Program-made: the position numbers and the translations under genes
Shown: one piece after another, positions 40,067 through 43,835 of the stretch
Position numbering within the stretch: the stretch's first letter is position 1
Layout of the letters: the number at the start of each line of letters is the position of its first letter
The notes under the pieces: model-generated
Told to the model about the DNA's origin: nothing
The model's database searches: none
What the model saw: the letters and a program-made list of their open reading frames with translations, nothing else
Assembly (NCBI RefSeq): GCF_009914755.1
Contig: NC_060935.1
Length of the DNA: 64,000 bases
Source of the DNA: the human T2T-CHM13v2.0 reference genome, Homo sapiens
Strand: one strand, 5' to 3'

Positions 40067-40172
40067 TTAAATTTAGATTTTTTATATTGCCTGTCTCTTA
40101 TCTAACTGTTGAAGATTTTTTTTTTAGTAGTTTGTCTTTTAGTTTTCATACTTGAGATTTAAGTGGTTTACA

Positions 40173-41640
40173 GAGACCGAATAGCCAAAGCAATCCTAAG
40201 CGAAAAGAACAAAGCTGGAGGCATCATGCTACCAGACTTAAAACTGTGCTATAGGGCTATAGTAATCAAAACAGCATGGTTTTTGTACAAAAACAGACAC
40301 ACACACCAATAGAACACACCAGAGAACAGAGAAATAGGGCAGCACACCTACAATTATCTGATCTTCAACAAACGTGACAAAAACAAGCAATGGGGAAAGT
40401 ATTCTCTTTCTAATAAATGGTGCTGGGATAACAGGCTAGCCATATGCAGAAGATTGAAACTGGACCTCTTCCTTACACCATATACAAATTTTAACTCGAG
40501 ATAGATTAAAAACTTAAATGTAAAATCCAAAACTAAAAACCCTGGAAGACAACCTAAGCAATACCATTCTGGATATAGAAACAGACTAAACAGTGTAAGA
40601 GTTCATGACAAAGAGGTCAAAGGCAATTGCAACAAGAGTAAAAAAAAATGACAAGTGGGATCTAATTAAACTGAAGAGCTTCTGCACAGAAATAGAAACT
40701 ATCAGCAGAGTAAACAGACAAACTACAGAACAGGAGAAAGTATTCACAAACTATGTGTCCAACAAAAATCTAATATCAAGCATCCATAAGGAAGTTAAAT
40801 AAATTTACAAGAAAAAAATAACCCCATTAAAAAGTGAGCAAAGGACACGAACAAGCACTTTTCAGAAGAAGACACACATGTGAGCAACAGTCATATGAAA
40901 AAAGCTCAACATCACTGATCATTAGATAAATGTAAGTCATACTACAATGAGATACCATCTCACACCAGTCACAATGCCTGTTATTAAAAAGTCAAAAGAT
41001 AACAGATGCTGGTGAGGTTATGGAGAAAAAGGAACGTGTATACACCGTTAATCAAAGTGTAAATTAGTTCAACCATTGTGGAAGACAGCATGGTGACTCC
41101 TGAAAGACCCGAAGATGGAAATACCATTTGACCCAGCAATCCTGTTACTGGGTATATACCCTAAGGAATATAAAACATTCTATCATAAGGACATATGCAT
41201 GCATATATTCATCACAGCACTAGTCACGATAGCAAATCTAAATGCCTATCAATGGTAGGTTGGATAAAGAAAATGTGGTATATATACACCATGGAATACT
41301 ATGCAGCCATAAAAAAGAATGAGATTATGTTCTTTGCAGGAATTCAGATGGAGCTGGAAGCCATTATCCTTAGAAAACTAATGCAGGAACAGAAAATCAA
41401 ATACCACATATTCTTAGTTATAAGTGGGAGCTAAATGATGAACACATACAGAAGAAAAACACACGTGGGTCTATTGGAGACAGGAAGGTGGGAGGAGGGA
41501 GAGTATCAGGAAAAATACCTAATGGGTACTAGGTTTAATGCCTGTGTGATGAAATAATCTGTACAGCAAACCCCCAGGGCACAAATTTACTTATATAACA
41601 AACCTGCACATGTATCCTTGAAATAAAAAATTAAAGTAAA
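40173..41640 (+). mobile_element. 5'-truncated older L1PA (about L1PA13-16 type), left member of an inverted pair
   Basis: ORF2 3' end and 3'UTR ending aacaaacctgcacatgtatccttgaaataaaaaa. Confidence 0.9.
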
Positions 41641-42440
41641 AAAGTAGAAATCTTAGAAATAAAGAATACAATAGTAAATGAAAAACTTGATGAAACAAAG
41701 AAAAGAATTAGTGACCTTCAAGGCAGAACATATAAAATTAGCCAATCAGCAGATCAGAAAGAAAAAAAGAATTTTAAAAAGTGAAGGAGGTCTGCAAGAA
41801 TTATGGGATACCACCAAGTGAACAAACCTCTACATAACTGAAATTCCCAAAGAAAATGAGAGAGAAAAAGATCTTGAAAGCATATTTAATAAAATTATGG
41901 TTGAAAACTTCCCAAATCTAGAGAAAGACAACAGCATCCAGTAAAAAGAAGCTCAGAAGTCAGCAATCAAATTCTACCCAAAGAGTAATTATCTAAGTGA
42001 AAATTAATGACAAAGATAATACTCAAAGCAGGAAGAAAAAAGAAACAATCAGCACAATTAACAGAGCCTCAGTAAGACTTTTAGCAGATTTTTCAGCAGA
42101 AATCCTGCAAGCCAGGAGAGATTAGGGTGCTATATTCAAATTGCTGAAGAAAAAAAAAAAAAACTACCAACCAAGAATATTGGACCCAGAATAGCTATCC
42201 TTCAAACATGAAGGAAAGATAGAGTGTCCAAGACAAAAAAATGAAAATAAATAAAAAAGCTGAGGGAATTTATGAATACCAGACATGTCTTATAAGAAAT
42301 ACTAAAAAGAATTCTTCAGTCTGAAAGAAATGGTTGCTAACATGTACAAGTAAATGTCTGAAGTTATAAAACTCATGGGTAAAAGAAAATGGACAAATTC
42401 AGGATACTCTAATACTGTAATTTTGGTAAGCAAACCACTT
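41641..42440 (+). mobile_element. L1M ORF1-region fragment, inverted relative to its parent element at 33005-40172
   Basis: ORF1-like sense sequence; its reverse complement begins aagtggtttgcttaccaaaattacagtattagag, continuing the aagtggttt at 40161-40169. Confidence 0.75.
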
Positions 42441-43835
42441 TTTAAAATCTATTTTTCTTTTAAGTTCAGGGGTACATGCATGTGCAGGTTTTTACATAGG
42501 TAAACTTGTGTCATGGGGGTTTGTTGTACAGATGATTTTATTACCCAAGTATTAAGCCTAGTACCCATTAGTTATTTTTCCTGCTCCTCTCCCTCCTTTC
42601 ATCTTTCACTCTCCCAAATTCCCCAGTGTGTGTTGTTCTTCTCTGTGTGTCCATGTGTTCTCATTATTAGCTTCCATTTATAAGTGAGAACATGTGGTAT
42701 TTGGTTTTCTGGTTCCTGTGTTAGTTGGCCAAGAATAATGGCCTCCAGCTCCATCCAGGTTCCTGCAAAGAACACGATCTCATTGTTTTGTATGGCTGCA
42801 TAGTATTCCATCATGTATATGTACCATATTTTCTCTATACAGTCTATAATTGATAGGCATTTAGGTTGATTCAATGTCTTTGCTATTGTGAATAGTGCTG
42901 TGATGAACATATGCATGCATATATCCTTATGATAGAATGTTTTATGTTCCTTTGGGTATATACCCAGTAACAGGACTGCTTGATCAAAAAATATTTCCGT
43001 CTTTGGGTCTTTCAGGAATCACCACGCTGTCTTCCATAATGAAACTAACTTACACTTTCACTAACAGTGTATACACGTTCCTTTTTCTCCATAACCTCAC
43101 CAGCATCTGTTATCTTTTGACTTTTTAATAACAGGCATTGTGACTGGTGTGAGATGGTATCTCATTGTAGTATGACTTACATTTATCTAATGATCAGTGA
43201 TGTTGAGCTTTTTTCATATGACTGTTGCTCACATGTGTGTCTTCTTCTGAAAAGTGCTTGTTCGTGTCCTTTGCTCACTTTTTAATGGGGTTATTTTTTT
43301 CTTGTAAATTTATTTAACTTCCTTATGGATGCTTGATATTAGATTTTTGTTGGACACATAGTTTGTGAATACTTTCTCCTGTTCTGTAGTTTGTCTGTTT
43401 ACTCTGCTGTTTCTATTTCTGTGCAGAAGCTCTTCAGTTTAATTAGATCCCACTTGTCATTTTTTTTTTTTACTTTTGTTGCAATTGCTTTTGACCTCTT
43501 TGTCATGAACTCTTACACTGTTTAGTCTGTTTCTATATCCAGAATGGTATTGCTTAGGTCATCTTCCAGGGTTTTTATAGTTTGGGTTTTACATTTAACT
43601 CATTAATACATCTTGAGTTAAAATTTTATATGGTGTAAAGAAGAGGTCCAGTTTCAATATTCTGCATATGGCTAGCCTGTTATCCCAGCGCCATTTATTA
43701 AAAAGGAAATACTTCCCCAATGCTTGTTGTTGCCAGGTTTGTCAAAGATCAGATAGTTGTAGGTGCGCAGCCCTATTTCTGTGTTCTCTATTGTGTTCCA
43801 TTGGTGTATGTGTCTGTTTTTGTATGAGTACCATA
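42441..43835 (-). mobile_element. 5'-truncated older L1PA, right member of the inverted pair
   Basis: T-rich tail then taagttcaggggtacatg...; 43067-43409 is identical to rc(40703-41045). Confidence 0.9.

What the first reader, a model, noticed from the sequence alone, without database searches (positions are those of the whole stretch)
40161..43835. L1-mediated 2-kb inversion with a 343-bp identical patch between otherwise diverged inverted L1s
Seen: two old L1PA 3' ends face each other. 40703-41045 equals rc(43067-43409) with no mismatch, including non-consensus changes such as tgtaagtcatactacaatg. 40552-40702 differs at only a few sites, while the outer and inner parts are visibly much more diverged. 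The host L1 breaks at aagtggttt (40161-40169), and its continuation, starting with the same motif (caaaccactt on + at 42431-42440), lies in the opposite orientation right beside the tail of the right-hand L1PA. Inference: the original insertion ran from 40173 to the tail now at 42441, with aagtggttt as its TSD. The inner segment (41046-43066) was later flipped by recombination between the L1s, so both are now chimeras. The stepped identity suggests repeated conversion or toggling, so this may be a recurrent polymorphic inversion that short reads would miss.
Basis: partly seen in the sequence, partly recalled or inferred. Interest (0 to 1): 0.82.

Follow-up and report, generated by a model that had tools for sequence, protein, structure and literature searches.

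The report
Old L1-pair inversion with conversion patch
Two old LINE-1 fragments that face each other in an intergenic stretch of the chromosome 11 olfactory-receptor cluster have recombined, flipping about 2 kb between them and repeatedly copying sequence onto each other; this is a clear but ordinary example of a known kind of rearrangement.

Summary
40703-41045 equals the reverse complement of 43067-43409, 343 of 343 bases. It sits inside two inverted L1 3' ends (40170-41643 +, 42441-43836 -) that are only about 80-87% alike elsewhere.

The inversion inference also holds on internal evidence. The older host L1 ends at AAGTGGTTT (40161-40169). Its continuation ends at the same 9 bases (42432-42440) in the opposite orientation, next to the other L1's A-tail. 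In 5 of 7 intact genomic copies of the host family the two pieces are contiguous and overlap by exactly 9 bases. So the left L1's 5' junction and the right L1's tail junction belong to one insertion, since split by recombination with a second, independent L1.

Shared derived substitutions and indels show at least two, probably three, nested rounds of gene conversion.

Not supported: that the inversion is polymorphic or toggling. A 41-genome inversion call set in T2T coordinates has no call here. No other human or ape assembly could be examined. The crossover point could not be placed.

This is a new locus of a known mechanism (L1 recombination-mediated inversion plus ectopic conversion). It is intergenic and of low interest.

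The parts
36534..40169 (-). Host (older) L1, ORF2-ward part. It runs leftward from the insertion site and is interrupted by later insertions (Alu-like stretch about 39753-40066, named from recall).
   Evidence: rc(36000-40169) aligns to reference copy L009 at 6412-6507, 6498-7259 and 7387-9175, in order. ORF piece 37911-38324(-) matches human LINE-1 ORF2p residues 211-335, E 4e-8.
40161..40169 (+). Target-site duplication, copy 1 (AAGTGGTTT). It is preceded by TTT, an L1-endonuclease-like TTT/AA site.
   Evidence: Read directly. The 9-bp overlap of the host pieces is seen in reference copies. The endonuclease consensus is recalled.
40170..41643 (+). Left L1 arm: 5'-truncated ORF2 C-terminal part, 3' UTR and A-rich tail. 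Inferred to be the 5' part of insertion X joined to the 3' part of insertion Y.
   Evidence: Aligns to rc of the right arm over 40286-41629. The best other genomic copies are 80% identical.
40286..40535 (+). Outer arm segment with intermediate shared-derived density (partner 43578-43824). Possibly an old conversion.
   Evidence: 7 shared-derived sites in 250. Fisher test against the unconverted part gives p = 0.05.
40536..40702 (+). Near-identical tract (partner 43410-43577).
   Evidence: 4 substitutions and 2 indels. 6 shared-derived substitutions, plus a 9-bp insertion at 40587-40595 shared by both arms and absent from at least 80% of 34 references.
40703..41045 (+). Identical patch, left copy.
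   Evidence: 343 of 343. 27 shared-derived substitutions and 2 shared 1-bp deletions.
41046..41235 (+). Inner arm segment carrying an older conversion signal (partner about 42880-43066).
   Evidence: 12 shared-derived sites in 190, against 3 in 394 further in. Fisher p = 1.8e-4.
41236..41629 (+). Never-converted 3' part of the arm (partner 42458-42879).
   Evidence: 3 shared-derived sites in 394. 32 left-private and 26 right-private substitutions in 388 compared sites.
41644..42440 (+). Host L1 piece immediately 5' of the insertion site. It now lies in the opposite orientation to the host L1 in the left flank.
   Evidence: Aligns to reference copies L006, L007, L009 and L010 up to the junction.
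42432..42440 (-). Target-site duplication, copy 2 (AAACCACTT on the + strand), abutting the A-tail of the right arm.
42441..43836 (-). Right L1 arm. Inferred to be the 3' part and tail of X joined to the 5' part of Y.
   Evidence: ORF piece 42602-43018(-) matches human LINE-1 ORF2p residues 1159-1263, E 2e-37.
43067..43409 (-). Identical patch, right copy.

Best explanation
An old host L1 lies on the minus strand. Two younger L1 copies of about the same age and family, both 5'-truncated, inserted independently, tail to tail and about 0.8 kb apart.

- X inserted into the host L1 on the plus strand, making the 9-bp duplication AAGTGGTTT.
- Y inserted on the minus strand at the point that is now 41644.

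Homologous recombination between the two inverted copies then flipped everything between the exchange points: the 3' parts of both L1s and the 0.8-kb host piece. The left element now carries X's 5' junction and Y's tail. The right element carries X's tail with the second duplication copy, and Y's 5' end.

The two arms also exchanged sequence by gene conversion at several different times. The last event left a 343-bp patch with no difference.

Shown: the inverted L1 arms, the identity steps, the shared derived changes, the split duplication, and the collinearity of the host pieces.

Inferred: the exchange mechanism, the independence of X and Y, the timing, and whether the last conversion and the inversion were one event.
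For: 1. Host L1 and its split duplication. The host pieces map to adjacent coordinates with an exact 9-bp overlap in 5 of 7 reference copies (L002, L004, L006, L007, L008). In L003 and L005 the first 100 nt of the flank did not align at the junction. The alignment of those five shows AAACCACTT once in each intact copy, at the end of the inner piece and at the start of the rc flank.

2. Orientation of the duplication copies. Copy 1 precedes the left arm's 5' end in that arm's sense, after TTT. Copy 2 follows the right arm's A-tail in that arm's sense. A single insertion cannot give this without a later inversion.

3. Identity of the elements. The arms are L1 ORF2 C-terminus plus 3' UTR. The host is L1.

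4. Independent insertions. In 41236-41629 only 3 of 394 sites are shared-derived, while each arm has 26-32 private substitutions in 388 sites.

5. Conversion. There are 27 shared-derived substitutions and 2 shared deletions in the patch, and a shared 9-bp insertion in the neighbouring tract. Shared-derived density is 7.9% and 6.3% against 0.8% (Fisher p = 6e-7 and 2e-4).

6. No outside donor. The next best genomic match to 40534-41045 is 82% identical, with 40 of 10776 candidates scored.

7. More than one event. If the patch were as old as the neighbouring tract, the chance of 0 differences in 343 bp is 2.4e-4.
Against: - No target-site duplication could be found for Y. Its far flank (43838-44720) shows no similarity to the host family (no hit of 80 nt or more at E <= 1e-6). 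Y's history is therefore incomplete: it may sit at the host's 5' truncation point, or it may have inserted with a deletion.
- The chimeric nature of the arms could not be confirmed independently. The 34 reference copies give no subfamily signal that links the left 5' part with the right 3' part (Pearson r = -0.06, p = 0.74, n = 34).
- No outgroup or second haplotype was seen, so the ancestral orientation rests on the duplication logic alone.
- The difference between the patch and its neighbouring tract could also come from one event with patchy mismatch repair.
Confidence: 0.85

Rival explanations
1. There was no inversion. The host L1 itself inserted by twin priming, with its 5' part inverted. 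The two younger L1s later landed exactly at the internal inversion junction and exactly at the host's outer end.
For: Twin priming gives the order rc(3' part) followed by the 5' part in the other sense. It often leaves a few duplicated bases at the junction positions: the Porubsky preprint passages report duplications in 89 of 273 events. The present order of host pieces fits that geometry.
Against: - It needs two insertions at exact boundaries.
- Neither arm would then have a target-site duplication. Instead, the 9 bases sit precisely at one arm's 5' end and the other arm's tail, with a TTT/AA-type site.
- In twin priming the duplicated bases are not expected to abut later insertions on both sides.
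Confidence: 0.03
2. The end products are the same, but they were made by replication template switching between the inverted arms (fold-back) rather than by a crossover. Such switching can both homogenise the arms and flip the spacer.
For: The mechanism is described for short inverted repeats in yeast (PMC8604942; only the abstract in the search listing was seen). The arms are close, with a 0.8-kb spacer.
Against: The described cases involve short repeats, whereas these arms are 1.3 kb. The sequence cannot tell the two mechanisms apart.
Confidence: 0.08
3. Only one L1 inserted. The second arm is an inverted duplication of the first, made by a rearrangement.
For: Both arms cover the same L1 interval and appear to belong to the same subfamily (one search found no discriminating signal).
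Against: - In the unconverted 3' part, only 3 of 394 sites are shared-derived, against 26-32 private substitutions per arm. The copies therefore separated at or before insertion.
- The two tails and 5' ends differ.
Confidence: 0.02
4. Assembly artefact: the patch or the orientation is an error of the assembly.
For: None was found here.
Against: The whole structure is 3.7 kb and the identical part is 343 bp. Both are far shorter than the long reads used for this assembly (established knowledge of the assembly, not tested here). The flanking steps of identity and the private indels are not what a collapse produces.
Confidence: 0.02

Closest known systems
Retrotransposon recombination-mediated inversion, L1-RMI (Lee et al. 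2008, PMC2603318; abstract, sections 6 and 7 and Table S1 read)
   Same: Two L1s in opposite orientation span the two breakpoints. Recombination makes chimeric elements and inverts what lies between, with no gain or loss. The size is within their range of 166 bp to 81 kb.
   Different: - This locus is not among their 49 loci.
- They inferred polarity from chimpanzee and outgroups. Here polarity comes only from a split target-site duplication.
- The L1s here are older and more diverged than the L1PA copies they found most often.
- The nested conversion tracts are an extra feature.
L1-pair-flanked balanced inversion polymorphisms in human genomes (Porubsky et al., bioRxiv 10.1101/2021.12.20.472354; passages read)
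   Same: Balanced inversion between inverted L1 copies, attributed to non-allelic homologous recombination. They report 22 such cases with a median size of 5.6 kb.
   Different: - In their set, 21 of 22 pairs are more than 90% identical (median 97.2%). Here the arms are about 88% identical overall, with one perfect island.
- No evidence that this one is polymorphic. It is absent from the T2T-based call set of the follow-up paper.
Ectopic gene conversion between inverted repeats that flank inversions (Aguado et al. 2014, PMC3961182; Giner-Delgado et al. 2019, PMC6748972; only search listings and abstracts seen; yeast flip/flop region PMC9731477, abstract only)
   Same: Identity between the arms is maintained or renewed by conversion, and homogenised arms favour further exchange.
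   Different: Those cases are larger repeats and proven polymorphic or recurrent inversions. Here recurrence is not shown.
Twin priming (5' inversion within one L1 insertion)
   Same: It also gives L1 pieces in opposite orientation, with a few duplicated bases.
   Different: Twin priming joins adjacent, essentially non-overlapping parts of one L1. Here the arms overlap over about 1.34 kb and have separate tails.

Membership tests
L1 recombination-mediated inversion (RRMI / NAHR between inverted L1s) | Two L1 elements in opposite orientation spanning the two breakpoints | tested here: met
   The arms 40170-41643(+) and 42441-43836(-) align over 1380 columns. One arm matches LINE-1 ORF2p residues 1159-1263.
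L1 recombination-mediated inversion (RRMI / NAHR between inverted L1s) | The segment between the elements is inverted relative to the ancestral arrangement | tested here: met
   Internal evidence only. The host L1 pieces are contiguous, with a 9-bp overlap, in 5 of 7 reference copies but lie in opposite orientation here. No outgroup was available.
L1 recombination-mediated inversion (RRMI / NAHR between inverted L1s) | The elements are chimeras of the two pre-recombination copies | tested here: inconclusive
   The split duplication implies it. The marker test across 34 reference copies gave no signal (r = -0.06), and private-substitution densities do not differ between the arms.
L1 recombination-mediated inversion (RRMI / NAHR between inverted L1s) | Balanced: no loss or gain at the junctions | tested here: met
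   There is an exact 9-bp overlap at the X junctions. The Y side cannot be judged because no duplication was found.
L1 endonuclease-dependent insertion (for X) | Target-site duplication, A-rich tail, T-rich/A cleavage site, 5' truncation | tested here: met
   A 9-bp duplication, TTT before copy 1, an A-rich tail before copy 2, and an element that starts within ORF2. The consensus cleavage site is recalled.
Ectopic gene conversion between repeats | A tract of identity far above background that carries derived changes shared by both copies, with no other donor | tested here: met
   343 of 343 identity, against about 1e-22 runs expected by chance. 27 shared-derived substitutions, 2 shared deletions and a shared 9-bp insertion nearby. 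The next best genomic copy is 82% identical.
Polymorphic or recurrent (toggling) human inversion | Both orientations present among human haplotypes, or on unrelated haplotype backgrounds | tested here: inconclusive
   No coordinate beginning 58195-58200 occurs in the supplements of the T2T 41-genome call set, which hold 35 chr11 mentions. Small inversions inside repeats can be missed, and no assemblies could be compared here.
Twin priming | The inverted and direct pieces are adjacent parts of one L1 transcript sharing one tail and one duplication | tested here: not met
   The arms overlap over about 1.34 kb, and each has its own tail.

The most novel reading that the evidence does not exclude
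The 343-bp perfect island makes this L1 pair a live substrate. On this reading the 2-kb segment still flips recurrently in the human lineage, so both orientations exist among people but have escaped inversion call sets because the breakpoints lie inside L1 sequence. Each flip or conversion would renew the island, so an otherwise 80%-identical, roughly 40-million-year-old repeat pair stays recombination-competent.
Probability: 0.06. Interest if true: 0.45.

Novelty: new member of a known kind. Interest (0 to 1): 0.25.

Why it matters
It matters little for function. The segment lies between a processed pseudogene and OR10W1 and holds only repeat sequence.

Its value is as a worked example. A split target-site duplication lets an old micro-inversion be proven from a single haplotype. 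The gradient of shared-derived against private changes shows that two diverged L1 copies can keep a recombination-competent island of identity through repeated conversion.

If the segment were polymorphic, it would be a case of the small repeat-embedded inversions that call sets miss.

Tried and rejected
- Subfamily and marker test for chimerism with 34 genomic L1 copies gave no signal. These were 28 from hits to the right arm and 6 from hits to the left arm. Age difference between the arms from private substitutions: none.
- Search for Y's target-site duplication by eye in both orientations found nothing convincing.
- The right flank 43838-44720 was tested as a continuation of the host L1. 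No match. An apparent match at 45094-45390 turned out to belong to a different L1 3' end lying on the minus strand from about 44700.
- Pfam on 14 stop-free ORF pieces gave no L1 family, only two chance-level hits below cut-off. A host ORF piece (42062-42208) against solved structures gave nothing relevant.
- Literature on this locus:
  - Lee 2008 Table S1 has no entry near it.
  - The Fernandez-Luna 2024 supplements have no entry.
  - The HGSVC 2025 supplement was cut when stored, and its hits were unrelated numbers.
  - The ape-genome supplement was unreadable.
  - The Giner-Delgado 2019 supplements have only one unrelated chr11 row, and 6 of 18 files were not searched.
  - The Cell 2022 inversion paper is not held.
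  - The main text of the Genome Research 2026 paper does not mention chr11.
- hg38/hg18 positions used to read Table S1 are my own recalled offsets, not checked.
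Full report
**What is there**

The window is T2T-CHM13 chr11:58156001-58220000 (hub annotation; confirmed). Between 40170 and 43836 two L1 3' ends face each other, tail to tail.
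- The left arm is 40170-41643 on the plus strand.
- The right arm is 42441-43836 on the minus strand.
- A 0.8-kb spacer (41644-42440) lies between them.

A stop-free frame of the right arm (42602-43018, minus) matches human LINE-1 ORF2 protein residues 1159-1263 at E 2e-37. The arms are therefore the C-terminal end of ORF2 plus the 3' UTR. The labels 'L1PA' or 'L1PB' rest on my recall of 3' UTR motifs. No repeat library was available, so the subfamily is not determined. The closest other copies in the genome are only 80-81% identical, so both copies are old.

**The observation**

A local alignment of the left arm with the reverse complement of the right arm spans 1380 columns, from 40286-41629 to 43824-42458.

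| Left-arm interval | Identity to the right arm |
|---|---|
| 40286-40533 | 218 of 250 columns |
| 40534-40702 | 161 of 172 (4 substitutions, a 3-base A-run difference, a 4-base CTAT indel) |
| 40703-41045 | 343 of 343 |
| 41046-41240 | 170 of 208 |
| 41241-41629 | 325 of 407 |

At a background identity of 0.85, about 1e-22 perfect runs of this length are expected.

**Is the identity due to conversion between these two copies?**

I aligned both arms with 34 other genomic copies: L014-L041 from hits to the right arm and L042-L047 from hits to the left arm. I classified every column in which both arms have a base and at least 20 references have a base; other columns were dropped.

A site is 'shared-derived' if both arms carry the same base and at most 10% of references carry it.

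| Interval | Shared-derived sites |
|---|---|
| 40286-40535 | 7 of 250 |
| 40536-40702 | 6 of 167 |
| 40703-41045 | 27 of 343 |
| 41046-41235 | 12 of 190 |
| 41236-41629 | 3 of 394 |

- The contrast with the last interval is significant for the patch (p = 6e-7) and for 41046-41235 (p = 2e-4). It is borderline for 40286-40535 (p = 0.05).
- Both arms also share a 9-bp insertion at 40587-40595 that at least 80% of references lack, and two 1-bp deletions inside the patch.
- The CTAT difference at the patch's left edge is a deletion in the right arm, because the references have CTAT.
- In 41236-41629 each arm has its own 26-32 private substitutions in 388 compared sites.
- The next best match to 40534-41045 in the whole genome is 82% identical, with 40 of 10776 candidates scored. 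The donor was therefore the partner arm.

Together these results show two copies that have diverged independently since about the time they inserted, and that have copied sequence onto each other around 40286-41235.

The steps imply more than one event. If the patch were as old as its left neighbour, the chance of no difference in 343 bp would be 2.4e-4. One event with patchy repair cannot be excluded for that particular pair of tracts. The intermediate mix of shared and private changes in 41046-41235 points to a still older event.

With substitution rates of 0.5-2.2e-9 per site per year (values I supplied, not measured here), zero differences in 343 bp give a 95% upper bound of about 2-9 million years for the last event.

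**The inversion**

Left of 40170 lies an older L1 on the minus strand.
- rc(36000-40169) aligns in order to a 10-kb reference copy.
- A frame at 37911-38324 matches ORF2 protein residues 211-335, E 4e-8.

The spacer 41644-42440 belongs to the same old family but lies on the plus strand.

I mapped the two pieces separately onto seven other genomic copies of that family (L002-L008).
- In 5 of 7 (L002, L004, L006, L007, L008) the spacer ends, and the reverse-complemented left flank begins, at adjacent coordinates that overlap by exactly 9 bases.
- In L003 and L005 the first 100 nt of the flank did not align at the junction.
- The multiple alignment shows the 9 bases once in each intact copy.

The 9 bases are AAGTGGTTT at 40161-40169, directly before the left arm's 5' end and preceded by TTT. 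Their complement is at 42432-42440, directly after the right arm's A-rich tail in that arm's sense.

An L1 insertion leaves its duplication in one orientation around one element. Here the two copies flank the 5' end of one arm and the tail of the other, in opposite orientation. The simplest history has four steps:
1. Insertion X enters the host L1.
2. A second, independent insertion Y lands in the opposite orientation, 0.8 kb away.
3. An exchange occurs between homologous positions of X and Y.
4. The exchange inverts the 3' parts of both and the spacer.

**What is not established**

- The exchange point can lie anywhere in the 1.3 kb of homology. The patch is the natural suspect only if the last conversion and the inversion were the same event.
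- A direct test for chimerism failed. Sites where the arms differ and the references are split show no linkage between the left 5' part and the right 3' part (r = -0.06, p = 0.74, n = 34). The two insertions seem to be of the same subfamily and age.
- Y has no recognisable duplication. The sequence beyond its 5' end (43838-44720) does not match the host family. Y either sits at the host's truncated 5' end or inserted with a loss of target sequence.

**Rivals**

- Twin priming of the host L1 would give the same order of host pieces. It requires two later L1s to land exactly on two boundaries and leaves both without duplications. I rate it at 3%.
- An inverted duplication of a single L1 is contradicted by the near absence of shared-derived sites in the unconverted part.
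- Template switching during replication could replace crossover as the mechanism, and cannot be told apart here.
- An assembly error is unlikely for a 3.7-kb structure, but I could not inspect reads.

**Polymorphism and recurrence**

- The supplements of the T2T-based inversion call set for 41 genomes (PMC10150506) contain 35 chr11 mentions but no coordinate beginning 58195 to 58200.
- The 49 human-chimpanzee retrotransposon-mediated inversions of Lee et al. 2008 do not include this place. I judged this by a recalled hg18 position.
- Other call sets were not held, were cut, or were unreadable. Supplements I could not see may bear on this.
- Conversion without crossover is enough to explain the steps, so toggling is not required.

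**Comparison with what is known**

- The structure fits L1 recombination-mediated inversion as defined by Lee et al. 2008 (sections 6 and 7 read).
- It also fits the L1-pair-flanked balanced inversions of Porubsky et al. They report 22 cases, with 21 of 22 pairs above 90% identity (passages read).
- It differs in that the pair is old and only about 88% identical overall, with a perfect island.
- It also differs in that polarity can be read from a split duplication without an outgroup.
- The idea that a perfect stretch of a few hundred bases is what homologous recombination needs is recalled, not tested.

**Verdict**

The insertion-plus-inversion history and the conversion are supported. The breakpoints, toggling and polymorphism are not. 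This is a new locus of a known mechanism in gene-free repeat sequence. Interest 0.25.

Noticed in passing
window 1-1939 and 3833-5796: A second, larger inverted repeat (arms 92-94% complementary in five collinear blocks, about 1.9 kb between the inner ends). It lies just upstream of OR1S1 and runs off the window start towards OR1S2 on the other strand. It is probably part of the inverted duplication that holds the OR1S1/OR1S2 pair (gene positions from the hub table).
   Followed up: no
window 43828-43849: At the 5' end of the right L1 arm, the 9 bases GTACCATAC occur twice, separated by AAAA. The first copy is the end of the L1 and the second lies in the flank. This could be microhomology at the 5' junction or a small local duplication.
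   Followed up: no
window 35245-36534: The alignable part of the host L1 ends at about 36534, right where the annotated processed pseudogene EIF4A2P3 (35245-36531, minus) ends. The pseudogene may therefore have inserted into, or next to, the same old L1 (hub table).
   Followed up: no
window 44700-49000: Another old L1 on the minus strand. Its 3' end is near 44700, and it aligns to reference copies over about 1.2-1.9 kb stretches. It first looked like a continuation of the host L1 but is a separate element.
   Followed up: partly
window 39753-40066: An insertion of about 314 bp interrupts the host L1 100 bp from the X insertion site. It is absent from the reference copies. It reads like a minus-strand Alu, by recall only.
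   Followed up: no
window 14880-15172, 22344-22639, 26367-26615, 28112-28360: A family of 120-250-nt repeats at 84-91% identity, in both orientations, around OR10Q1. They coincide with stretches masked in the hub table and are probably common interspersed repeats.
   Followed up: no
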